DNA from: a virus
Reading direction: 5' to 3' (one strand)
Length of the DNA: 40,625 nucleotides
Virus genome (UHGV): UHGV-0137877
Positions 27,931 through 38,633 of this stretch are shown here, piece after piece (position 1 is the stretch's first letter; each line of letters starts with the position of its first letter). The notes under the pieces are model-generated. The model was not told where the DNA came from. It was given only the letters and a program-made list of their open reading frames with translations, and did not search any database. The translations under genes and the position numbers were made by a program.

Positions 27931-30405
27931 ATGAGACAGGAATGTATACAAGCGGTCCAGCAGGCGGCGCAGCGCACGTTAACGGCGCGAGAAATACAGA
28001 ACATTGAAGACCGCATTTATCGCAATATGCGCTCCATTGCTCGTGATGACCCTATGTCGTGGCGACAACTTTCCGAGTCAGAGCGGCTGTATCGTGCAGC
28101 ACAATTGGCATCTGAAGAATTACAGCGAGAAGCGGCATTAAAGAAACGTCGTGTGGCTCTTACTATAGCCGCACGTCAGAGATTGGATAAATTTATCAAT
28201 AGCTATCAAGGGGCTGATGGGAAACTTGGCGCTCTTAACCGTACTATTGCTTTTAATGCAGACGGTAAATCGAATTTCCTCTCTGTTGAGTCCAGAACAA
28301 AAGCCACTCGTGATTATGCATTGAGTCAATTGCAGGAGGCATTCGAAGCAGTTGATCCTCGCTTTTTTGGCCTGTTTGAAGATGAAGCGGGCGTGCGTGA
28401 CCTGGTATATGAAATGCGAGGGCAAAATACTGGCAATGCTAAAGCAAGAAAAGGTGCTAAGGCGTGGAGAGAAGTGACAGATCTACTCCGCCGCCGGTTT
28501 AATGATGCTGGTGGGGACATTGGCTATCTCGAAAACTGGGGGATCCCTCAACATCATTCTATGGAAAAGGTTGGGGCGGTATCAAAAGATAAATGGGTTA
28601 GCGATGTTATAGGTAAGCTGGATCGCAAATATTATACCCGAGCCGATGGACAACTGATGAACGATGCCGAGTTGTCTGCATTTCTTGGAGAGGCTTATAA
28701 CACGATCGCTACTGGTGGGCTGAATAAGCTTACTGATACCGGAATGCGAATTTCCGGCGCACGTGCTAACCGTGGTAATGCATCACGACAGATACATTTC
28801 AAAGATGCAGATTCCTATCTGCAATATCAGCAACTTTATGGCGATCGCTCTCTATGGGAAATCATGGTCGGTCACCTGGAAGGTATCAGTAAAGATATTG
28901 CACTGGTGGAAACATATGGCCCAAACCCCGATCATGTTTTCCGCTCCCTTCTTGATCTGGTTAAGGCAGAAACGGCAACAGCTAACCCGAGTAAAACCGG
29001 TAAAGTCGAGCGGCTGGCGAACAACACAGAGAATCTGTACAACTTTATTTCTGGAAAGACACAGCCTGTAGCGAATCCGCACATCGCGCGATGGTCTGAC
29101 AATATCCGCAACTGGCTGGTTGCCAGCAGACTCGGATCCGCGTTGCTGTCATCGTTCTCTGATCTTGGAACCATGTATCTGTCTGCGAAGGTTACCAACC
29201 TTCCAATGAACCAGTTATTCCGCAACCAGCTTGAAGCTATGGACCCAACGAACCGTACAGAACTTGCGCGGGCGCGCCGCGCTGGTCTGGCGATGGAATC
29301 TCTACTTGGCAGCGTTAACCGCTGGGCGATGGATAATATGGGGCCGTCAGTGTCTCGTTGGGCGGCAACGGCCGTAATGCGTGCCAGTGGGCTTACAGCA
29401 TGGTCAGATGCGCACAAGCGCGCCTATGGCGTAACCATGATGGGAAGCCTGGGAGAAGTAGTGTCACGGACACCAGACCTTCGTAGCCTCGATGACTCTG
29501 ATTTTCGTATCCTGAAAAGCAAAGGGATTACTGACACAGACTGGAGCGTATGGAAGCTGGCGCAACAGGAGGACTGGGGGAACGGTAATAATACGATGCT
29601 GACACCGGAAAGCATTATGCGTATCCCTGATTCAGCAGTTAAACATCTTGGTGAGCCTGAACGAGTGAAATTTGAGGCAATGCGTAAACTGCTCGGTGCC
29701 GTAACTGAAGAAGTTGATATGGCTGTTATTACACCGGGAGCACGTGAGCAACTGATAACCGGTTCTGGTATTCAGCGTGGAACATGGAAAGGTGAATTAA
29801 CGAGAAGTGTTTTCCTGTTTAAATCGTTCCCTATCTCGGTTGTTATGCGTCACTGGTCACGCGCTATGGGTATGCCGTCTGCTGGTGGGCGTGCGGCATA
29901 TATTGCGACGTTTATTGCCAGTACGACCATTCTTGGCGCTTTGTCGCAGCAACTTAACGACCTTGCGTCTGGTCGTAATCCTCGAGAGATGACAGGAGAA
30001 GGTGCCGCAAAATTCTGGCTTGGTGCTCTACTGAAAGGTGGTGGCCTTGGCCTTTACGGTGACTTTTTATTGTCAGATCACACTAGGTACGGAAGCGGCG
30101 CGCTGGCGTCGATGCTTGGCCCGGTAGCTGGTCTGGTTGATGACGTAGTGAAGATTGCTCAGGGCATACCGTTAAATGCTGTGGAAGGGAAGAGTGAGCA
30201 GACTGGTGGTGATCTGGTGAAGCTGGGGAAAGGTTTGATGCCAGGTGCGAATCTCTGGTACTTAAAGGCGGCTCTCGATCATATGATCTTTAACCAGATG
30301 CAGGAGTATTTTTCACCAGGCTATTTGCGTAAAATGGAGCAACGTTCGAAGAAAGAGTTTAATCAGACATACTGGTGGCGACCTCAGGATGTCACTCCGC
30401 AATAA
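27931..30405 (+). CDS. Internal virion/ejection protein (gp16-like, second part)
   Basis: 824 aa; GAGAGG RBS; last large gene of the ejection block. Confidence 0.45.
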   Translation: MRQECIQAVQQAAQRTLTAREIQNIEDRIYRNMRSIARDDPMSWRQLSESERLYRAAQLASEELQREAALKKRRVALTIAARQRLDKFINSYQGADGKLGALNRTIAFNADGKSNFLSVESRTKATRDYALSQLQEAFEAVDPRFFGLFEDEAGVRDLVYEMRGQNTGNAKARKGAKAWREVTDLLRRRFNDAGGDIGYLENWGIPQHHSMEKVGAVSKDKWVSDVIGKLDRKYYTRADGQLMNDAELSAFLGEAYNTIATGGLNKLTDTGMRISGARANRGNASRQIHFKDADSYLQYQQLYGDRSLWEIMVGHLEGISKDIALVETYGPNPDHVFRSLLDLVKAETATANPSKTGKVERLANNTENLYNFISGKTQPVANPHIARWSDNIRNWLVASRLGSALLSSFSDLGTMYLSAKVTNLPMNQLFRNQLEAMDPTNRTELARARRAGLAMESLLGSVNRWAMDNMGPSVSRWAATAVMRASGLTAWSDAHKRAYGVTMMGSLGEVVSRTPDLRSLDDSDFRILKSKGITDTDWSVWKLAQQEDWGNGNNTMLTPESIMRIPDSAVKHLGEPERVKFEAMRKLLGAVTEEVDMAVITPGAREQLITGSGIQRGTWKGELTRSVFLFKSFPISVVMRHWSRAMGMPSAGGRAAYIATFIASTTILGALSQQLNDLASGRNPREMTGEGAAKFWLGALLKGGGLGLYGDFLLSDHTRYGSGALASMLGPVAGLVDDVVKIAQGIPLNAVEGKSEQTGGDLVKLGKGLMPGANLWYLKAALDHMIFNQMQEYFSPGYLRKMEQRSKKEFNQTYWWRPQDVTPQ

Positions 30406-30414
30406 GGAAGTGTT

Positions 30415-30588
30415 GTGTTTTTAATTATTTTGAGTGTGATAATTTCTGGTGGGTTGTTATTTATTGACCGCTACAAATATTTTCTTAACCCTCAGACTCA
30501 AGCTATTTGCTGGTTCATCTTTGTTGTGCAGGGAATAGTTCTTGTTGCAAGCCTTATTGAGGGGAGGCCTCTGATTTTTACTGGGTAA
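30415..30588 (+). CDS. Small hydrophobic protein (57 aa, GTG start; not in ORF track)
   Basis: GTG at 30415 just after AAGGAAG; two predicted transmembrane segments; open frame to TAA at 30586-30588. Confidence 0.25.
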   Translation: MFLIILSVIISGGLLFIDRYKYFLNPQTQAICWFIFVVQGIVLVASLIEGRPLIFTG

Positions 30589-30600
30589 ATAGGTGACTAC

Positions 30601-30897
30601 ATGCAAGCGATAGGATTCATTGTTTATATCGTCGTTGGCCTTTTTCAGTTGGCAGCAATTATGGCTGGGCTTGAATCATGGTGGGGATTGCACTGGATAA
30701 TTGCAGCCCCCATTGCTTTCATCGTGAGCTATATTCCATTTGTTGGAGCGATTGTTGGTATGGTTGGCGCTGTGGATGTATGGCGGTGGGAGTGGTGGCA
30801 GGCTGGCCTTCTCTTCTTTGGTGGGATCATCTTTGCTATTGTCTGCGGTGGAATGTCATCATTTTTCGAATGGCTATCATTCAGAAAAGGGACGTGA
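30601..30897 (+). CDS. Trp-rich integral membrane protein
   Basis: 98 aa; AGGTGA RBS; three or four hydrophobic helices; last gene of the late operon. Confidence 0.55.
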   Translation: MQAIGFIVYIVVGLFQLAAIMAGLESWWGLHWIIAAPIAFIVSYIPFVGAIVGMVGAVDVWRWEWWQAGLLFFGGIIFAIVCGGMSSFFEWLSFRKGT

Positions 30898-30905
30898 CAT
30901 GTCAC

Positions 30906-30930
30906 AGGCCGCTTTCGCGGCCTTGTTTTT
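30906..30930 (+). terminator. Rho-independent terminator ending the late operon
   Basis: AGGCCGC-tttc-GCGGCCT followed by TGTTTTT. Confidence 0.65.
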
Positions 30931-30970
30931 AACGAATGCCACCGCCACCCGGGCGGGAATCCGCAGACAC

Positions 30971-30992
30971 AAAAAAGCCCGCAGAGCGGGCT
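30971..30992 (-). terminator. Rho-independent terminator after the DUF2335-like gene
   Basis: AGCCCGC-aga-GCGGGCT followed by a U6 run on the minus strand; overlaps the stop codon. Confidence 0.6.
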
Positions 30993-31540
30993 TACTTTTC
31001 TTCAGGTTTATTGTCTTCAGATTTCTTCTTGATGCTTGGTTTTTGTCTAAGAACGAAAATACCAGCCACTGCAACAACTGTACCGATCACTGTGCCTGCT
31101 AGAACTTCATGACCTGTTAAACCTAATAATGTTGCACAAGCTACTGTAAAAATAGTTGCACTCAGGCCAAACCACTGCCCACGTTTATCTCTATTAATAG
31201 CCCCGTCAAGTGCCTTTTCCTCCATTTTCTGGCGGTGAGCAAACTCCTTCTCCGTCAGCTGGAAGATGCGTTCGGGGGCATCAGGTAAAATATCCTGATA
31301 CCCGCGAAGCAGATAGGGGGGAGGAAGCGGACCCTGAAACGCATGGTGAGCGACAACTATCTCCTGAATTTCAGGGCGATCAAGAACTCTTGTGAAGGCA
31401 TCTGGGTGTTGAATGATCTCGTTACTTAGCCCTTCCTCAACTTCCTCGAACTCAGTTTCTTCGTTATCACTTGGTTGCCCAATAGATTTTTGCATATTTG
31501 TCGAAGGACATTCCTTTAGCTTCTGGTTTTCCTCTTGCAT
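30992..31540 (-). CDS. DUF2335-like membrane protein
   Basis: 182 aa (167 if it starts at the internal ATG 31495); acidic N-terminus, PPPYLL...ERIFQLTEKEFAHRQ core, two C-terminal transmembrane helices, Lys-rich tail. Confidence 0.55.
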   Translation of the reverse strand: MQEENQKLKECPSTNMQKSIGQPSDNEETEFEEVEEGLSNEIIQHPDAFTRVLDRPEIQEIVVAHHAFQGPLPPPYLLRGYQDILPDAPERIFQLTEKEFAHRQKMEEKALDGAINRDKRGQWFGLSATIFTVACATLLGLTGHEVLAGTVIGTVVAVAGIFVLRQKPSIKKKSEDNKPEEK

Positions 31541-33394: not shown

Positions 33395-36300
33395 ATGACG
33401 GTCTCAACCGAAGTTGACCACAACGAATACACAGGTAACGGCGTTACGACATCGTTTCCGTATACTTTTCGAATTTTCAGAAAATCAGACCTGGTTGTTC
33501 AGGTGTCTGACCTGAACGGGAACGTAACAGAATTGGTTCTGGATACCGGTTATACGGTAACTGGGGCGGGAACTTATAGTGGCGGTTCTGTGGTTCTTCC
33601 GTCGCCGCTTGCTACTGGATGGCGAATTACGATAGATCGTGTGCTTGATGTAGTGCAGGAGACAGACCTTCGCAATCAGGGAAAATTTTTCCCCGAAGTG
33701 CATGAAGATGCTTTTGACTACCTGACGATGCTGATCCAGCAATGTTTTGGGTGGTTCAGACGTGCATTGATGAAACCATCTTTGCTTGCAAAATATTACG
33801 ATGCAAAGCAAAACAAAATTTCTAACCTTGCAGATCCATCACTTGAACAGGACGCTGTAAATAATCGCTCAATGCGTAATTATGTCGATGCTGCAATCGC
33901 CGGGGTTGTTGGTGGTTTTGGTTGGTTTATTCAGTATGGTTCTGGGGCTGTGTACCGAACGTTCCAGGATAAAATGCGTGATGCTATTAGCCCCAAAGAT
34001 TTTGGAGCTGTTGGTGATGGTATAAATGACGATTCCACTGCAATAAGCGCGTGCCTTGAAGCCTCATCTCCAGGTTATAAAATTGACGGATTAGGGCTTA
34101 CTTTTAAAGTATCAACTCTTCCGGATGTCAGCCGATTTAAAAATGCTCGTTTTTTATTTGAGAGAATACCGGGTCAGCCTCTTTTTTATGCTTCTGAAGA
34201 TTTTATCCAGGGAGAGTTATTTAAAATTACAGATACACCGTGGTACAACGCCTGGACGCAGGATAAAACGTTTGTATATGACAATGTCATCTATGCGCCT
34301 TTTATGGCTGGAGACCGCCATGGTGTAAATAACCTCCATGTTGCATGGGTTCGCTCAGGAGATGACGGGAAGACCTGGACAACGCCGGAATGGCTTACAG
34401 ATTTACATGAAAACTATCCCACAGTTAACTATCACTGCATGAGTATGGGGGTTGTCAGAAATCGCCTTTTTGCTGTAATTGAGACGCGGACCGTGAGCGG
34501 AAATAAACTGCAGGTTGCAGAGTTGTGGGATCGCCCAATGAGTCGCAGCCTTCGCGTTTATGGTGGTATAACGAAAGCAGCAAATCAGCAAGTCGCTTAT
34601 ATTCGCATTACTGATCACGGATTATTTGCTGGTGATTTTGTCAACTTCTCAAACTCTGGTGTTACAGGTGTTACCGGGAATATGACGGTGACTACTGTTA
34701 TTGATAAAAATACTTTTACAGTTACGACGCAAAATACCCAGGATGTGGATCAGAATAACGAGGGTAGATACTGGAGTTTTGGTACATCATTTCACTCGTC
34801 ACCATGGAGAAAAACCAGTCTTGGAACTATTCCTTCTTTTGTTGACGGAAGCACTCCTGTTACTGAGATTCACAGTTTTGCGACGATTAGCGATAACAGT
34901 TTTGCTGTTGGCTACCATAATGGTGATATTGGTCCACGCGAGCTTGGGATACTCTATTTCTCTGATGCTTTCGGTTCTCCTGGTAGCTTTGTTCGCAGAC
35001 GCATACCTGCAGAATATGAGGCGAATGCATCTGAGCCATGTGTAAAATATTATGATGGCATTCTGTATCTGACGACCAGGGGGACATTAAGTACTCAACC
35101 CGGTAGTTCATTGCACAGAAGCTCTGATTTAGGTACATCATGGAATTCTCTTCGCTTCCCAAATAATGTTCATCACTCAAACCTTCCTTTTGCCAAAGTT
35201 GGCGATGAGCTGATTATTTTTGGCAGTGAGCGCGCATTTGGTGAGTGGGAAGGAGGAGAACCTGATAACCGTTATGCAGGAAATTATCCAAGAACATTTA
35301 TGACCAGAGTTAACGTCAATGAGTGGAGTCTGGATAATGTAGAGTGGGTTAATGTTACTGATCAGATTTATCAGGGCGGAATAGTTAACTCTGCGGTTGG
35401 TGTTGGTTCAGTTTGTATCAAAGACAACTGGCTGTACTACATTTTCGGTGGGGAAGACTTTCTAAACCCATGGAGCATAGGGGATAACAACAGAAAATAT
35501 CCTTATGTTCACGATGGTCACCCGGCTGATTTGTATTGTTTCAGGGTGAAAATTAAACAGGAAGAATTTGTTTCAAGGGATTTTGTCTACGGAGCCACTC
35601 CTAACAGAACGCTTCCTACTTTTATGTCGACGTCAGGCGTGAGGACGGTTCCTGTACCCGTTGATTTCACAGATGATGTTGCCGTCCAGTCACTGACTGT
35701 CCATGCAGGTACATCAGGACAAGTTCGCGCGGAAGTCAAACTTGAGGGTAATTACGCCATTATTGCGAAGAAAGTACCGTCTGATGATGTTACCGCTCAG
35801 AGATTAATCGTTAGCGGAGGTGAAACAACGTCTTCAGCAGATGGTGCAATGATAACGTTGCATGGTTCCGGAAGCAGTACTCCACGTCGCGCGGTATATA
35901 ACGCACTCGAACATCTTTTTGAGAACGGAGATGTTAAACCTTATCTTGATAATGTAAATGCTCTTGGTGGTCCGGGAAACAGGTTCTCGACAGTTTATCT
36001 TGGCTCCAATCCTGTGGTTACCAGTGACGGAACATTAAAGACAGAGCCGGTCTCTCCTGACGAAGCATTGCTGGATGCCTGGGGTGACGTCAGGTATATC
36101 GCTTATAAATGGCTGAACGCTGTCGCTATAAAGGGGGAAGAAGGGGCGAGGATACATCATGGTGTAATCGCGCAGCAACTTCGTGATGTTCTTATTTCTC
36201 ACGGACTCATGGAAGAAGAAAGCACAACATGCCGCTATGCCTTTCTTTGCTATGACGATTATCCCGCAGTATATGATGACGTCATTACTGGCCAAAGGGA

Positions 36301-36514
36301 AATGCCGCTGACTGATAATGACGGGAGCATCATTGTTGATGAGGATGATAATCCAGTGATGGTAATGGAAGACATCATTGAGCGCGTTGAAATAACGCCA
36401 GCAGGATCTAGATGGGGGGTCAGACCTGATCTCTTATTCTATATCGAGGCGGCATGGCAGCGCAGAGAAATGGATAAGATAAAAGAGCGGATTCAGTCTC
36501 TGGAAGAACGTTAA
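33395..36514 (+). CDS. Tailspike: endosialidase with gp17-like N-terminal anchor and C-terminal self-cleaving chaperone domain
   Basis: 1039 aa; N-terminus resembles the particle-binding domain of T7 gp17; two Asp-box motifs (SGDDGKTW, SSDLGTSW); C-terminal NPVVTSDGTLKTEP...HHGVIAQQLRDV resembles S74-type chaperone domains. Confidence 0.75.
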   Translation: MTVSTEVDHNEYTGNGVTTSFPYTFRIFRKSDLVVQVSDLNGNVTELVLDTGYTVTGAGTYSGGSVVLPSPLATGWRITIDRVLDVVQETDLRNQGKFFPEVHEDAFDYLTMLIQQCFGWFRRALMKPSLLAKYYDAKQNKISNLADPSLEQDAVNNRSMRNYVDAAIAGVVGGFGWFIQYGSGAVYRTFQDKMRDAISPKDFGAVGDGINDDSTAISACLEASSPGYKIDGLGLTFKVSTLPDVSRFKNARFLFERIPGQPLFYASEDFIQGELFKITDTPWYNAWTQDKTFVYDNVIYAPFMAGDRHGVNNLHVAWVRSGDDGKTWTTPEWLTDLHENYPTVNYHCMSMGVVRNRLFAVIETRTVSGNKLQVAELWDRPMSRSLRVYGGITKAANQQVAYIRITDHGLFAGDFVNFSNSGVTGVTGNMTVTTVIDKNTFTVTTQNTQDVDQNNEGRYWSFGTSFHSSPWRKTSLGTIPSFVDGSTPVTEIHSFATISDNSFAVGYHNGDIGPRELGILYFSDAFGSPGSFVRRRIPAEYEANASEPCVKYYDGILYLTTRGTLSTQPGSSLHRSSDLGTSWNSLRFPNNVHHSNLPFAKVGDELIIFGSERAFGEWEGGEPDNRYAGNYPRTFMTRVNVNEWSLDNVEWVNVTDQIYQGGIVNSAVGVGSVCIKDNWLYYIFGGEDFLNPWSIGDNNRKYPYVHDGHPADLYCFRVKIKQEEFVSRDFVYGATPNRTLPTFMSTSGVRTVPVPVDFTDDVAVQSLTVHAGTSGQVRAEVKLEGNYAIIAKKVPSDDVTAQRLIVSGGETTSSADGAMITLHGSGSSTPRRAVYNALEHLFENGDVKPYLDNVNALGGPGNRFSTVYLGSNPVVTSDGTLKTEPVSPDEALLDAWGDVRYIAYKWLNAVAIKGEEGARIHHGVIAQQLRDVLISHGLMEEESTTCRYAFLCYDDYPAVYDDVITGQREMPLTDNDGSIIVDEDDNPVMVMEDIIERVEITPAGSRWGVRPDLLFYIEAAWQRREMDKIKERIQSLEER

Positions 36515-36820: not shown

Positions 36821-37225
36821 ATGTCTGCTCAAGTAACAAGTGAGCAATTAAATCAGTTGCTTAGTTTTGGTTCTCTTGCTGCGGTTATTGCAGGTGTCCC
36901 TCCGGAGGTTGCTTTAGGGGCTTTGGCTGGGGCGGTAATTTTTGTTACCTCTGCAGTAGAGTACCCCATCCGTCGCCGGGTGCTCCTGTCGATGCTCAGC
37001 TTTCTTTGCGGCCTTCTCTTTTACAAACCAGCAGCATCAATTCTTATCGGCATAGCCAGCCTGATCCCTACCATCACGCAGGACTCTTTTGAAAAAGGGA
37101 TTGTTTTCTCTGCAGGCGCATTCGTGTCAGCAATTGTCGCTGTGCGTATTGGTATATGGCTCTATCACCGTTCCGATAATCCACGCGAGTTAATTCCGGG
37201 GAGAAAAGACGATGGTAACGCATGA
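36821..37225 (+). CDS. Membrane protein, putative holin or lysis regulator
   Basis: 134 aa; AGGAGA RBS; three or four transmembrane segments; first gene of the lysis cluster. Confidence 0.45.
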   Translation: MSAQVTSEQLNQLLSFGSLAAVIAGVPPEVALGALAGAVIFVTSAVEYPIRRRVLLSMLSFLCGLLFYKPAASILIGIASLIPTITQDSFEKGIVFSAGAFVSAIVAVRIGIWLYHRSDNPRELIPGRKDDGNA

Positions 37226-37520
37226 GTTTTTTTTGCTTATCACCAATGCAGTTATTTGCACTGGCATAGCAATTCGCGTTGTCACATTCCGGCGTAACGG
37301 CTCTCAACATCGAAGGTGGGGAGGATGGCTTGCTTATTTCCTGATTGTTGCTGCGGCCAGTATTCCTGTTCGAGTCGCCTATGCAATCTGGTTACGTACG
37401 CCAATGGCTGTGGATTTATCCGAGGTCATTATCAACGCTGTCATGCTTGCTGCGGTTATTAAAACGCGCGGTAACGTCGTTCAAATTTTCAAAGTATCGA
37501 GGTCTAAACATGGAGATTAA
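37212..37520 (+). CDS. Holin-like membrane protein
   Basis: 102 aa; three hydrophobic helices, charged C-terminus; overlaps the endolysin start. Confidence 0.5.
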
Positions 37521-38139
37521 ACAATTCCAGCGAGCTGCTGGTATCAGCGAGGCACTGGCCGCACGCTGGTTCTCGCATATAACTTCTGCGATGAAAGAGT
37601 TTGGTATCAGCAAACCAGAAGATCAGGCTATGTTTATTGCTCAGGTCGGGCATGAGTCTGGAGGCTTCACCCGGTTGCAGGAGAATTTCAACTACAGCGT
37701 CAGCGGACTGGCTAACTTTGTTCGGGCTGGGCGTCTCACTCAGGGACAGGCCAACGCATTGGGGCGCCGTGCTGGTGAACCACCATTGCCACTTGAGCGC
37801 CAGCGCGCGATCGCAAATCTGGTATACAGCAAACGCATGGGGAACAATGCCCCTGGTGATGGCTGGAATTACCGAGGGCGCGGACTTATCCAGATTACCG
37901 GTTTGAATAACTATCGTGATTGCGGAAACGGTCTGAAGGTTGACCTGCTGGAGAGCCCTGAACTGCTGGCGCAGGACGAATATGCGGCTCGTAGCGCGGC
38001 GTGGTTCTTTGCCAGCAAAGGATGCATGAAGTATACCGGCGATATTGCACGTGTAACTCTGATTATCAATGGTGGCCGGAACGGCATCGACGACCGGCGC
38101 GCGCGATACATCAATGCCAGTAAGGTGCTGGCGGTATGA
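37510..38139 (+). CDS. Endolysin, GH19 chitinase-like
   Basis: ORF track 37345..38139; preferred ATG 37510 after GAGG; motifs [10 protein letters not shown] and [15 protein letters not shown]. Confidence 0.75.
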
Positions 38140-38633
38140 TCCTGACATTCGTAAAAGCATATTGGAAACAGCTGCTTATCGTGTTGATGCTTGCTGCTCT
38201 GTTCATCGTCGGAGTGGTTGCCTGGAATATACACGGCAGCCGCCAGTACGATGCCGGGTATGCGCAGGCACAGGAAGATCAGAAACAGGCTGATGATAAG
38301 GCCAGGTCACAACGTGATCAGGAGAAAACACAAATTGAACGTGAAGCACAATCCCGTATCGATGTGGCGCGTGTTGATGCTGAGCATGCTAATGCCGCTG
38401 CTGACAGCCTGCGCGCCGAGCTTGACAAAACCAAGCGACTCGCCGAACACTATACCGGATCTTTCCCCACTGGCACGCCAGCCAGCAAGGTCATCGGTGT
38501 GCTCGCCGACATGCTTGAAGAAAGCAATCGAGTTTACAACGCAACAGCAGCTGAGGCTGAAAAGTATCGGATTGCAGGAGAATCCTGCGAACAGCAATAC
38601 GATTCACTGAAGAAGCAAAAATCGTGGCACTGA
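38136..38633 (+). CDS. i-spanin (Rz-like)
   Basis: 165 aa; N-terminal transmembrane helix then charged coiled coil; directly after the endolysin. Confidence 0.6.
38362..38610 (+). CDS. o-spanin (Rz1-like), embedded in the +1 frame of the i-spanin gene
   Basis: ORF track 38191..38610; proposed start at an internal ATG giving [17 protein letters not shown] (lipobox LTAC) then a Pro-rich mature region. Confidence 0.5.
   Translation: MWRVLMLSMLMPLLTACAPSLTKPSDSPNTIPDLSPLARQPARSSVCSPTCLKKAIEFTTQQQLRLKSIGLQENPANSNTIH

What the first reader, a model, noticed from the sequence alone, without database searches (positions are those of the whole stretch)
30415..30930. Two small membrane proteins at the end of the late operon
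A 57-aa GTG-initiated hydrophobic ORF (absent from the track) and a 98-aa Trp-rich membrane protein follow the ejection genes and precede a strong terminator. Small membrane proteins in this position are often superinfection-exclusion or surface-modification factors.
Basis: inference. Interest (0 to 1): 0.5.

Follow-up and report, generated by a model that had tools for sequence, protein, structure and literature searches.

The report
Swappable small membrane-protein genes in prophage
Two real but uncharacterised small inner-membrane protein genes sit in a swappable cargo slot just after the DNA-ejection genes of an epsilon15/phiV10-like E. coli prophage; they are accessory genes that most plausibly act on the cell envelope, perhaps by blocking entry of rival phage DNA, and no function has been shown.

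Summary
ORF57 (30415-30588, GTG) and ORF98 (30601-30897, 8 Trp) follow the 824-aa ejection protein, a homologue of epsilon15 gp17 / T7 gp16. Each has a Shine-Dalgarno site, and an intrinsic terminator follows (30906-30930).

Both are coding. ORF98 has dN/dS 0.02-0.06, matches phrog_3075 over its full length and gives an AF2 model with pLDDT 90. ORF57 is intact in 25 distinct full-length DNA variants, with dN/dS 0.17-0.24 against about 0.9-1.7 in the other frames.

They are not a fixed pair and are not core genes. Among 80 prophages with a nearly identical ejection-gene end:
- about 41 carry ORF57+ORF98;
- 27 carry an unrelated 46-aa two-helix protein;
- 9 carry a lipoprotein.

All sit between the same ribosome-binding site and the same terminator.

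ORF98 belongs to a large unnamed membrane-domain family (748 clusters). Members occur on phages, plasmids and integrative elements, and some are fused to other membrane domains.

Neither protein resembles P22 SieA, HK97 gp15, epsilon15 gp22 or the holins. Neither tracks tailspike type, which argues against receptor-specific surface modification.

Superinfection exclusion remains the best guess (about 0.35), resting only on position and architecture. Overall this is an ordinary kind of locus carrying an uncharacterised family.

The parts
27931..30405 (+). Context: last ejection (internal virion) protein gene, 824 aa, homologue of epsilon15 gp17 / phiV10 gp20 / T7 IVP-D. Its 3' end forms the conserved left flank of the cargo slot.
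   Evidence: phrog_684 full-length match. 99% identity to phiV10 gp20. epsilon15 gp17 = T7 IVP-D family (PMC4819975). The conserved flank ends at the Shine-Dalgarno site.
30404..30410 (+). Shine-Dalgarno site AAGGAAG for ORF57, overlapping the TAA stop of the ejection gene. This is the left boundary of the exchangeable cassette.
   Evidence: Sequence. The alignment with phiV10 and Klebsiella phage BUCT711 is conserved up to TAAGG and diverges after it.
30415..30588 (+). ORF57: a 57-aa two-helix hairpin membrane protein with a GTG start (TTG in Klebsiella/Salmonella relatives). The gene is accessory and often unannotated.
   Evidence: ORF. Hydropathy. 25 distinct full-length (174-nt) DNA variants keep the frame intact; one more ends in a 60-aa frameshift variant and one copy is truncated. 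dN/dS is 0.17-0.24 against 0.87-1.68 in the other two frames; 17 of 31 substitutions are synonymous, binomial P = 1e-4. 13 homologue clusters, all Enterobacteriaceae, at least 74% identical.
30591..30596 (+). Shine-Dalgarno site AGGTGA for ORF98. The spacer TAAATAGGTGACTACATG is identical in the E. coli and Klebsiella phages.
   Evidence: Sequence. Alignment.
30601..30897 (+). ORF98: a 98-aa Trp- and Gly-rich integral membrane protein. It belongs to phrog_3075 and to a large unnamed membrane-domain family. Family-wide conserved residues: Q16, Y44-I-P46, G49xxxG53xxG56-A57, W61xW63, A68, L71-F72.
   Evidence: ORF. phrog_3075 E = 1.6e-54. No Pfam or NCBIfam family. dN/dS 0.02-0.06. AF2 pLDDT 90.4 with helices 2-28, 32-42, 46-59 and 65-97. 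Conservation. 748 family clusters.
30894..30905 (.). Perfect 12-bp palindrome GTGACATGTCAC overlapping the ORF98 stop codon. It starts the conserved right flank of the cassette. Function unknown.
   Evidence: Sequence. Conserved in phiV10 and BUCT711 whatever cassette precedes it.
30906..30930 (+). Intrinsic terminator: a 7-bp stem with 6 G-C pairs, loop TTTC and tail TGTTTTT. It closes the head/ejection transcription unit.
   Evidence: Scan. Fold -14.3 kcal/mol, z = -3.1. Annotated as a terminator in phiV10. In the 80-locus sample it was found within 1.5 kb after the cassette in 68 loci, including most loci of each main cassette type.

Best explanation
ORF57 and ORF98 are two separate accessory ('moron'-type) genes for small inner-membrane proteins. 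They sit in a recombination-prone cargo slot between the ribosome-binding site at the end of the last ejection-protein gene and the terminator that closes that transcription unit, in an epsilon15/phiV10-like (Uetakevirus) prophage.

**Shown here.**
- Both are under purifying selection in their own reading frames.
- Both are predicted helical membrane proteins.
- The slot holds alternative, unrelated small envelope proteins in otherwise near-identical prophages.
- ORF57 and ORF98 each occur without the other.
- ORF98 belongs to a large unnamed membrane-domain family carried by phages, plasmids and integrative elements.

**Inferred.**
- Both are transcribed as the tail of the late operon, because they share its strand, abut the preceding gene and have no promoter-like site upstream.
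- They insert into the inner membrane. ORF98 has its C-terminus in the cytoplasm and probably forms a homo-oligomer, since one relative carries the domain three to four times in tandem.
- They act at the envelope against incoming DNA of competing phages or other mobile elements. This would be superinfection exclusion at the DNA-entry step, analogous to but not homologous with P22 SieA and HK97 gp15.

**My estimates.**
- Real membrane-protein genes: about 0.9 for ORF98 and 0.8 for ORF57.
- Accessory cargo rather than core phage functions: about 0.85.
- Exclusion of incoming DNA as the function: about 0.35.
For: **Coding.**
- ORF98 has dN/dS 0.02-0.06, and variable columns by codon position are 54/28/87.
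- ORF57 has dN/dS 0.17-0.24 against 0.87-1.68 in the other frames. The start codon switches GTG/TTG at the same position. 25 intact full-length variants were found.

**Membrane.** Hydropathy and the AF2 helices agree. Across the family, K+R averages 2.4 per sequence at the C-terminus and about 0.2 in each loop.

**Cargo slot.**
- In 80 IMG/VR loci with at least 97% identical ejection-gene ends, about 41 have ORF57+ORF98, 27 have a 46-aa two-helix protein, 9 have a lipoprotein and 3 have none. The shared terminator motif was found within 1.5 kb in 68 of the 80 loci.
- Further variants are seen.
- Cassette boundaries fall at the Shine-Dalgarno site and at the stop codon/palindrome.

**Independence.**
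- ORF57 occurs without ORF98 (L106, L108).
- ORF98 occurs without ORF57.

**Mobile-element spread of ORF98.**
- Directly after the last ejection gene in Cronobacter and Salmonella prophages, and downstream of it in a Yersinia prophage.
- Next to an integrase at a prophage end.
- On plasmid-like contigs.
- In a phage early region.
- In alphaproteobacterial islands.
- 748 clusters in total.

**Analogy.**
- P22 sieA lies between ejection gene 16 and the tailspike, encodes a three-helix inner-membrane protein and blocks DNA injection (PMC10883804).
- HK97 gp15 is a small membrane 'moron product' inside a late operon, followed by a terminator.

**Oligomer hint.** P0060 matches the domain in four stretches.
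Against: - There is no sequence or fold link to any known exclusion protein.
- No promoter-like site lies upstream, and the genes are on the late-operon strand. P22 sieA is on the opposite strand with its own promoter. Expression from the prophage, usual for exclusion genes, is therefore not evident.
- ORF98 is more conserved (93-100% amino-acid identity between E. coli and Klebsiella phages) than the neighbouring ejection proteins at 72-87%. That is unusual for a conflict gene.
- ORF98 stays 94-100% identical next to ejection proteins only 24-27% identical to the one here. It does not co-vary with a specific ejection apparatus.
- Fusions to DUF805, RDD and zinc-ribbon modules fit a general membrane module as well as they fit a defence function.
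Confidence: 0.4

Rival explanations
1. Host-physiology cargo. The proteins change envelope properties of the lysogen, such as stress, serum or ion tolerance or membrane homeostasis, rather than blocking other phages. ORF98 would be a general small-membrane module that happens to travel on mobile elements.
For: - The ORF98 domain is fused to generic membrane modules of unknown function (DUF805, RDD, zinc ribbon, MORN) and also stands alone in chromosomal islands.
- It is under very strong purifying selection.
- The related prophage phiv142-3 is reported to raise serum survival of its APEC host, although that paper credits orf6 and orf10 and does not mention the homologue of ORF98, Orf12 (PMC7724020).
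- 205 of 5426 complete E. coli genomes carry the pair.
Against: - No promoter-like site for expression in the lysogen.
- Alternative cassettes in the slot are unrelated in sequence and type, including lipoproteins and secreted proteins. That turnover is more typical of conflict genes than of a physiological function.
Confidence: 0.15
2. Lysis-related or membrane-permeabilising proteins. ORF98 (three helices, about 100 aa, basic C-terminus) and/or ORF57 would act as a holin, pinholin or antiholin-type lysis-timing factor, or as an abortive-infection pore.
For: - Size and helix count resemble class I holins.
- Weak Pfam match to Phage_holin_5_2: E = 0.027, 15.2 bits.
- A Gly-zipper-like GxxxGxxG and an invariant Gln in helix 1 suggest oligomeric helix packing.
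- Co-transcription with late genes is likely (inference).
Against: - The Pfam match is well below the 29.2-bit cut-off.
- The phage already has a complete lysis cassette at 36821-38633 with two holin-family genes, an endolysin and a spanin.
- ORF98 is absent from phiV10, epsilon15 and SPN1S, which lyse normally.
- Family members sit on plasmids and are fused to other membrane domains.
Confidence: 0.12
3. Accessory factors of the ejection apparatus. The proteins would be packaged with, chaperone or dock the ejection proteins, making them virion or assembly components rather than cargo.
For: - ORF98 homologues (54-61% identical) lie directly after the last large ejection-protein gene in Cronobacter and Salmonella podophage prophages and downstream of it in a Yersinia one. 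In Cronobacter the spacing is 1 nt.
- Same strand and close spacing here.
- Strong conservation.
- A small two-helix ORF follows gp17 in epsilon15, phiV10 and SPN1S.
Against: - In prophages with at least 97% identical ejection-gene ends, the slot holds unrelated proteins or nothing.
- ORF98 is 94-100% identical beside ejection proteins only 24-27% identical to this one.
- It also occurs on plasmids and beside integrases, away from any ejection genes.
- BcepC6B, of the same structural group, has no such gene after gp17.
- The two-helix ORFs of epsilon15, phiV10 and this phage share no detectable similarity.
Confidence: 0.1
4. Surface-polysaccharide modification. The small hairpin protein (ORF57) or ORF98 would inhibit or redirect a host O-antigen or capsule enzyme, as the 66-aa two-helix epsilon15 gp22 inhibits the alpha-polymerase. 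That would change the receptor used by this phage.
For: - Uetakeviruses are classic serotype converters, and epsilon15 gp22 is a two-helix 66-aa inhibitor (annotation).
- This window has no conversion genes between tailspike and holin, so a conversion function might lie elsewhere.
Against: - Of 42 loci with the E. coli-type ORF57+ORF98 pair, 35 share only the N-terminal head-binding part of the tailspike and only 3 share the endosialidase. The pair therefore does not track receptor specificity.
- No similarity to epsilon15 gp22.
- The genes are not located in the conversion module beside the tailspike 3' end.
Confidence: 0.07
5. ORF57 is not a gene. It would be a chance open frame in an AT-rich spacer between the ejection gene and ORF98, and only ORF98 would be real.
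For: - It is short and starts with GTG.
- PGAP and the depositors of phiv142-3 and BUCT711 did not call it.
- There is no family hit beyond a weak PHROG match at E = 0.064.
- Short ORFs are abundant here.
Against: - The frame is intact in 25 distinct full-length DNA variants across E. coli, Klebsiella, Salmonella, Citrobacter and Enterobacter.
- dN/dS is 0.17-0.24 in this frame only, with an excess of synonymous changes at P = 1e-4.
- It has a consensus Shine-Dalgarno site at 6 nt.
- The GTG/TTG start is at a fixed position.
- It has coherent two-helix hairpin hydropathy, like the positional analogues in other Uetakeviruses.
Confidence: 0.1

Closest known systems
P22 SieA (superinfection exclusion A; Leavitt et al. 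2024, PMC10883804)
   Same: - Encoded between the last ejection-protein gene (P22 gene 16, the counterpart of gp17 here) and the tailspike gene, beside a Bro/Ant antirepressor block.
- A small inner-membrane protein with three predicted transmembrane helices.
- Present in only some relatives of the phage, in several sequence types.
   Different: - No sequence relationship (hhalign probability 0.2%).
- SieA is 162-164 aa and has a cytoplasmic FxRYPxEAxxFNK motif that is absent here.
- sieA is on the opposite strand with its own promoter and is expressed from the prophage. ORF57 and ORF98 are on the late-operon strand with no promoter-like site.
- Exclusion by ORF57 or ORF98 is untested.
HK97 gp15 moron (small membrane protein inside the tail operon; reported as a superinfection-exclusion protein by Cumby et al. 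2012, cited from my own knowledge)
   Same: A roughly 60-aa membrane protein gene inserted on the same strand within a late structural operon and closed by its own terminator. The record annotates it as 'moron product'.
   Different: - No sequence similarity.
- gp15 has one hydrophobic helix plus a charged tail, whereas ORF57 is a hairpin and ORF98 has three helices.
- HK97 is a siphovirus, and gp15 lies next to the tape-measure gene.
Positional analogues in other Uetakeviruses: epsilon15 gp18 (64 aa), phiV10 gp21 and SPN1S_0020 (46 aa)
   Same: - Same slot: they start about 10 nt after the gp17-type gene (overlapping its end in epsilon15), on the same strand, and a terminator follows in epsilon15 and phiV10.
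- All are two-helix hairpins.
- All are uncharacterised: phrog_29212 and phrog_7892, both unknown function.
   Different: - No detectable similarity to ORF57.
- They are not strict alleles: an ORF57-type gene and an epsilon15 gp18-type gene sit side by side in a Salmonella prophage (L106).
- None of these three phages has ORF98.
phrog_3075 and the wider unnamed ORF98 membrane-domain family
   Same: - ORF98 matches phrog_3075 end to end at E = 1.6e-54.
- It shares the family-wide residues Q16, YIP, GxxxGxxGA, WxW and LF with 325 clusters at E <= 1e-10.
   Different: The family has no name, no Pfam or NCBIfam model, no solved or similar structure and no tested function. Membership therefore says nothing about mechanism.
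Class I holins (three helices, about 100 aa, for example lambda S; Pfam Phage_holin_5_2)
   Same: Similar size, helix count, basic C-terminus and likely late expression.
   Different: - The Pfam score of 15.2 bits is below the 29.2-bit cut-off.
- ORF98 is not adjacent to an endolysin or spanin. The real lysis cassette is 6 kb downstream.
- Family members are found on plasmids and in fusion proteins.

Membership tests
P22 SieA family | Sequence homology to SieA types A-C, including the cytoplasmic FxRYPxEAxxFNK motif (PMC10883804) | tested here: not met
   hhalign of the ORF98 alignment against P22 SieA gave probability 0.2% over 8 aligned columns. No such motif appears in either sequence.
P22 SieA family | Inner-membrane protein with about three transmembrane helices | tested here: met
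   ORF98 only, by prediction: three hydrophobic stretches and AF2 helices at pLDDT 90. Localisation has not been measured.
P22 SieA family | Gene lies between the last ejection-protein gene and the tailspike gene | tested here: met
   gp17-type gene ends at 30405 and the tailspike starts at 33395. P22 layout.
P22 SieA family | Own promoter and expression from the prophage | tested here: inconclusive
   No promoter-like site on the + strand upstream of 30415 within 29800-30415. The genes share the late-operon strand, whereas P22 sieA is on the opposite strand with an annotated promoter. A consensus scan cannot exclude a weak or non-sigma-70 promoter.
P22 SieA family | Blocks DNA injection by related phages | not testable with these tools
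   Needs plating and DNA-entry assays.
HK97 gp15-type moron | Sequence homology to HK97 gp15 | tested here: not met
   ORF98 alignment against gp15: hhalign probability 0.2%. ORF57 against gp15: no BLASTP alignment.
HK97 gp15-type moron | Promoter-gene-terminator unit inserted in a late operon | tested here: inconclusive
   Terminator present. Insertion and replacement are shown by alternative cassettes between fixed flanks. No promoter-like site was found.
Holins (Pfam Phage_holin_5_2 / class I) | Profile match above the curated cut-off | tested here: not met
   15.2 bits against a cut-off of 29.2, E = 0.027. ORF57 has no match.
Holins (Pfam Phage_holin_5_2 / class I) | Gene adjacent to endolysin and spanin genes | tested here: not met
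   Holin-family genes at 36821-37520, endolysin to 38139 and spanin at 38136-38633 lie about 6 kb away.
epsilon15 gp22-type polymerase inhibitor (serotype conversion) | Sequence similarity to gp22, or location in the conversion module beside the tailspike 3' end | tested here: not met
   No alignment with ORF57. ORF98 alignment: hhalign probability 0.5%. The conversion module of epsilon15 lies after the tailspike, not here.
epsilon15 gp22-type polymerase inhibitor (serotype conversion) | Co-variation with receptor (tailspike) specificity | tested here: not met
   35 of 42 loci with the same ORF57+ORF98 pair have a different tailspike receptor-binding part.
phrog_3075 (ORF98) | Full-length profile match | tested here: met
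   E = 1.6e-54, residues 1-98 on profile positions 1-98 of 98. The family function is unknown.
Known anti-phage defence proteins (PADLOC-DB) | Match to any defence-system profile | tested here: not met
   No family for ORF57 or ORF98 at E <= 1.

The most novel reading that the evidence does not exclude
ORF98 would define a large, unnamed family of oligomeric small membrane proteins, with at least 748 clusters at 50% identity. The family is spread by phages, plasmids and integrative elements. It would form a new class of envelope-level entry-exclusion or channel-type factor that acts on a conserved host membrane component rather than on a particular phage's ejection proteins. On this reading the slot after the Uetakevirus ejection genes is a dedicated 'envelope-defence cassette' site in which two-helix hairpins, ORF98 and lipoproteins are shuffled.
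Probability: 0.2. Interest if true: 0.6.

Novelty: new variant of a known kind. Interest (0 to 1): 0.35.

Why it matters
If ORF98 or ORF57 blocks DNA entry, they would add new and very small protein families to the short list of mechanistically understood superinfection-exclusion factors of podoviruses. P22 SieA is the main example so far.

ORF98 would also give a functional handle on a widespread unnamed membrane domain found on many mobile elements.

There are practical angles too:
- The prophage carries a K1-specific endosialidase tailspike, and nearly identical ORF57-ORF98 cassettes occur in extraintestinal pathogenic and avian pathogenic E. coli genomes. Prophage-encoded exclusion could therefore affect phage therapy against K1 strains.
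- The fixed-flank cassette slot is a convenient natural site for studying or engineering cargo exchange.

If neither protein does anything of the kind, the locus is an ordinary example of small phage hypothetical membrane genes.

Tried and rejected
1. **Pfam, NCBIfam and PADLOC scans** of both proteins gave nothing usable. The only hit was a sub-threshold holin match.
3. **Domain fusions** as a functional clue gave only DUF805, RDD, zinc ribbons and MORN, which are uninformative.
4. **Homology to known small phage membrane effectors** was absent for P22 SieA, HK97 gp15 and epsilon15 gp22.
5. **ORF57 as a diverged allele of phiV10 gp21 or epsilon15 gp18** was rejected. There is no similarity, and ORF57-type and gp18-type genes co-occur.
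6. **ORF57 and ORF98 as an obligate pair** was rejected, since each occurs alone.
7. **A small transmembrane gene after IVP-D as an ancient conserved feature** was rejected. BcepC6B lacks one.
8. **RNA elements.** Only two sub-threshold Trp_leader matches were found (E = 0.22 and 0.81, about 20 bits against a gathering score of 41). They were caused by the terminators plus Trp-rich or T-rich sequence and are treated as chance.
9. **Repeats.** Nothing notable was found.
10. **Literature.** No paper mentions these proteins by accession or PHROG number. The phiv142-3 paper does not mention Orf12.
11. **Five loci that seemed to have ORF98 without ORF57** turned out to have an intact ORF57. A 1-nt spacer indel makes ORF callers extend ORF98 upstream.
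Full report
**What the window is.** The region is part of an epsilon15/phiV10-like podovirus (genus Uetakevirus) of E. coli. The 700 bases around the finding are 98-100% identical to Escherichia phages Phi05_2388 B, HEMP4, phiv142-3 and YDC107_2. Only the flanks match phiV10, SPN1S and others. At least 80% of 30380-30935 is present in 205 of 5426 complete E. coli genomes, essentially always on the chromosome.

The upstream genes are the ejection (internal virion) protein set. The 824-aa protein ending at 30405 matches phrog_684 over its full length and is 99% identical to phiV10 gp20. Its epsilon15 counterpart gp17 was assigned to the T7 internal virion protein D family by Hardies et al. (PMC4819975). 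Downstream lie, in order:
- a minus-strand block holding a DUF2335 membrane protein, an unknown protein, a Bro-N/Ant antirepressor and a phrog_450 protein;
- the tailspike at 33395-36514;
- a complete lysis cassette at 36821-38633.

**Observation.**
- ORF57 (30415-30588, GTG) has two hydrophobic segments around the turn D18-R19-x-K21.
- ORF98 (30601-30897) has three hydrophobic stretches and 8 Trp.
- Each has a good Shine-Dalgarno sequence: AAGGAAG at 30404-30410 and AGGTGA at 30591-30596.
- The terminator at 30906-30930 has a 7-bp stem, 6 G-C pairs and a TGTTTTT tail. It folds at -14.3 kcal/mol, z = -3.1. The same sequence is annotated as a terminator in phiV10.

This is the end of the head/ejection unit, not of all late genes.

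**Are they genes?**

ORF98 clearly is.
- It matches phrog_3075 end to end at E = 1.6e-54.
- It has 52 homologue clusters in the 5.8-billion-protein set, down to 48% identity, in Escherichia, Klebsiella, Cronobacter, Dickeya, Kosakonia, Yersinia and Salmonella.
- Variable columns by codon position are 54/28/87, and dN/dS against Klebsiella-type copies is 0.02-0.06.

ORF57 alone would not exceed chance, since 49 ORFs of at least 30 aa overlap this 5 kb. The comparative evidence supports it.
- 25 distinct full-length DNA variants keep the frame open. One further copy has a C-terminal frameshift. One is truncated in a record whose neighbouring gp17-type gene is annotated only as short fragments.
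- The start codon alternates GTG/TTG at the same position.
- dN/dS against Klebsiella-type copies is 0.17-0.24 in this frame and 0.87-1.68 in the other two.
- Seventeen of 31 substitutions are synonymous where about 7 are expected, binomial P = 1e-4.
- Its family is narrow: 13 clusters, all Enterobacteriaceae, at least 74% identical.
- PGAP and several depositors do not call it.

**The slot.** The key result is that these genes sit in an exchangeable cargo slot. An alignment of the window with phiV10 and Klebsiella phage BUCT711 is conserved up to the Shine-Dalgarno site after the ejection gene. It is conserved again from the last few bases of ORF98, through a 12-bp palindrome GTGACATGTCAC (30894-30905), into the terminator. 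Between those points phiV10 has a completely different 46-aa gene.

I took an unbiased sample of 80 IMG/VR loci chosen only for an ejection-gene 3' end at least 97% identical. The slot contents were as follows.

| Slot content | Loci |
|---|---|
| ORF57+ORF98 | about 41, counting 5 loci first scored as ORF98 alone (an ORF-calling artefact: ORF57 is intact there) |
| phiV10 gp21-type 46-aa two-helix protein | 27 |
| 126-138-aa lipoprotein (phrog_3716) | 9 |
| No recognisable gene | 3 |

The shared terminator motif was found within 1.5 kb in 68 of the 80 loci, including most loci of each main cassette type.

Loci retrieved through ORF98 show further partners upstream of it:
- a 103-aa two-helix protein;
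- a 54-aa two-helix protein;
- 102-123-aa signal-peptide proteins;
- a 175-aa secreted protein.

Loci retrieved through ORF57 show it followed by one of three arrangements:
- an epsilon15 gp18-type 64-aa hairpin;
- a lipoprotein;
- a 93-aa membrane protein plus ORF98.

ORF57 and ORF98 are therefore independent modules, not an obligate pair. Every occupant of the slot is a small envelope protein. BcepC6B, in the same structural group, has no such gene after its gp17, so the slot is a lineage-specific accessory site.

**ORF98's family.** An exhaustive profile search found 748 clusters at E <= 0.001 and 325 at E <= 1e-10. Most are stand-alone proteins of 85-130 aa. Some carry the domain at one end of a larger membrane protein, and one carries it in four matched stretches. 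Fused partners include DUF805, RDD, zinc ribbons and MORN repeats.

Gene contexts are those of mobile elements of many kinds:
- directly after the last ejection gene in Cronobacter and Salmonella prophages, and downstream of it in a Yersinia prophage;
- beside an integrase at a prophage end;
- on plasmid-like contigs with Replicase/PriCT, RepL, ProQ, RecT and SSB genes;
- in a phage early region;
- in alphaproteobacterial islands with serine recombinases, and beside umuDC in Buttiauxella.

Conserved residues across the family are Q16, Y44-I-P46, G49xxxG53xxG56-A57, W61-x-W63, A68 and L71-F72. AF2 gives a confident all-helical model with pLDDT 90.4 and helices at 2-28, 32-42, 46-59 and 65-97.

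Basic residues cluster at the C-terminus (2.4 per sequence), while both loops are acidic or neutral at about 0.2. This places the C-terminus in the cytoplasm. It leaves open whether the middle segment crosses the membrane or re-enters it; that is inference. The tandem-repeat relative suggests the unit works as an oligomer, which is also inference.

No Pfam, NCBIfam or PADLOC family and no solved or viral predicted structure resembles it.

**Mechanism.** Comparative data constrain the options in four ways.
1. *Not core.* Prophages with near-identical structural genes do without either protein.
2. *Not tied to receptor specificity.* Of 42 loci with the same pair, 35 share only the N-terminal head-binding part of the tailspike. 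This disfavours the surface-modification idea. There is also no similarity to the two-helix serotype-conversion inhibitor epsilon15 gp22.
3. *Not tied to one ejection apparatus.* ORF98 is 94-100% identical beside ejection proteins only 24-27% identical to this one.
4. *Probably not lysis.* A full lysis cassette lies elsewhere, and the only holin signal is sub-threshold.

What remains is an accessory envelope function carried by many kinds of mobile element. The closest organisational precedents are:
- P22 sieA, a three-helix inner-membrane protein encoded between ejection gene 16 and the tailspike that blocks DNA injection (PMC10883804);
- the HK97 gp15 moron, a small membrane protein gene on the late-operon strand with its own terminator.

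I therefore keep exclusion of incoming DNA as the single most likely function, at about 0.35. The argument is positional only. There is no homology to SieA or gp15.

The genes also differ from sieA in orientation and in lacking any promoter-like site. They may be made only late in lytic growth. In that case, exclusion would protect the infected cell or spare progeny from adsorbing to doomed cells, rather than protect the lysogen.

ORF98's very strong conservation, higher than that of the adjacent ejection proteins, fits a target that is a conserved host membrane component.

**Rivals.** The rival explanations and my rough probabilities are:
- host-physiology cargo, 0.15;
- lysis or pore function, 0.12;
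- ejection or virion accessory, 0.10;
- surface modification, 0.07;
- for ORF57 only, a spurious ORF, 0.10.

**Novelty and verdict.** The locus type, small membrane-protein cargo at the end of a phage structural operon, is well known. Two things are new:
- the slot is a fixed-flank cassette site with at least three common alternative contents in E. coli prophages;
- ORF98 belongs to a large, unnamed, uncharacterised membrane-domain family spread across mobile elements.

No literature mentions these proteins. I rate this a new variant of a known kind with modest interest (0.35). Function is still open and is cheaply testable by expression and plating experiments.

Noticed in passing
window 33395-36514 (+): The tailspike is a complete endosialidase: End_N_terminal, End_beta_propel, End_beta_barrel, End_tail_spike and the S74 chaperone domain. 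This Uetakevirus prophage therefore targets the K1 polysialic-acid capsule. Only 3 of 42 related loci share this tailspike; the others keep only the N-terminal head-binding part.
   Followed up: partly
window 30992-31540 (-), terminator 30975-30993: A 182-aa DUF2335 membrane protein (phrog_3996, category 'moron') converges on the ORF98 terminator and has its own bidirectional terminator. Only a minority of related loci carry it; others have a 53-aa 'transmembrane anchored protein' instead. It, rather than ORF57/ORF98, has the orientation of P22 sieA.
   Followed up: partly
window 30894-30905: A perfect 12-bp palindrome GTGACATGTCAC overlaps the ORF98 stop codon just 5' of the terminator stem. 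It is conserved in phiV10 and Klebsiella phage BUCT711 whatever cassette precedes it, and it marks the right boundary of the cassette. Whether it is a protein-binding or recombination site is unknown.
   Followed up: no
L001 4243-4599 (phiv142-3 Orf12); L134, L145, L153, L162, L170: A 1-nt indel in the ORF57-ORF98 spacer opens an in-frame TTG upstream. ORF98 is then annotated as 118 aa overlapping ORF57, and ORF57 goes uncalled, although it is intact. This is probably an annotation artefact.
   Followed up: yes
P0060 (427 aa) and other proteins: The ORF98 domain occurs in four matched stretches within one polypeptide. It is also fused to DUF805, RDD, zinc-ribbon and MORN modules. The tandem form hints that the free domain works as an oligomer.
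   Followed up: partly
L007 6308-6646, L009 6304-6594, L006 6276-7526: In alphaproteobacterial islands (two Microvirga genomes and an uncultured alphaproteobacterium), the ORF98 homologue is immediately followed by another small membrane protein. In the Microvirga loci it carries an N-terminal LPRFVWIIPA motif, and in L007 and L009 a 'KxPYGYYxxLRIV' motif. The loci lie close to serine-recombinase genes. This may be a recurring gene pair.
   Followed up: no
L109-L188 slot after the gp17-type gene; L108 4279-4659: An alternative cassette encodes a 126-138-aa lipoprotein with lipobox LLVGC (phrog_3716, unknown function, no Pfam). It is found in 9 of 80 near-identical E. coli prophages and next to an ORF57-type gene in Citrobacter. 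Lipoproteins in such slots are also candidate exclusion factors.
   Followed up: partly
window 30813-30930 (+) and 30969-31082 (-): Rfam gives two sub-threshold Trp_leader matches (19-21 bits against a gathering score of 41). They are explained by terminator hairpins next to Trp-codon-rich or T-rich sequence and are treated as chance.
   Followed up: yes
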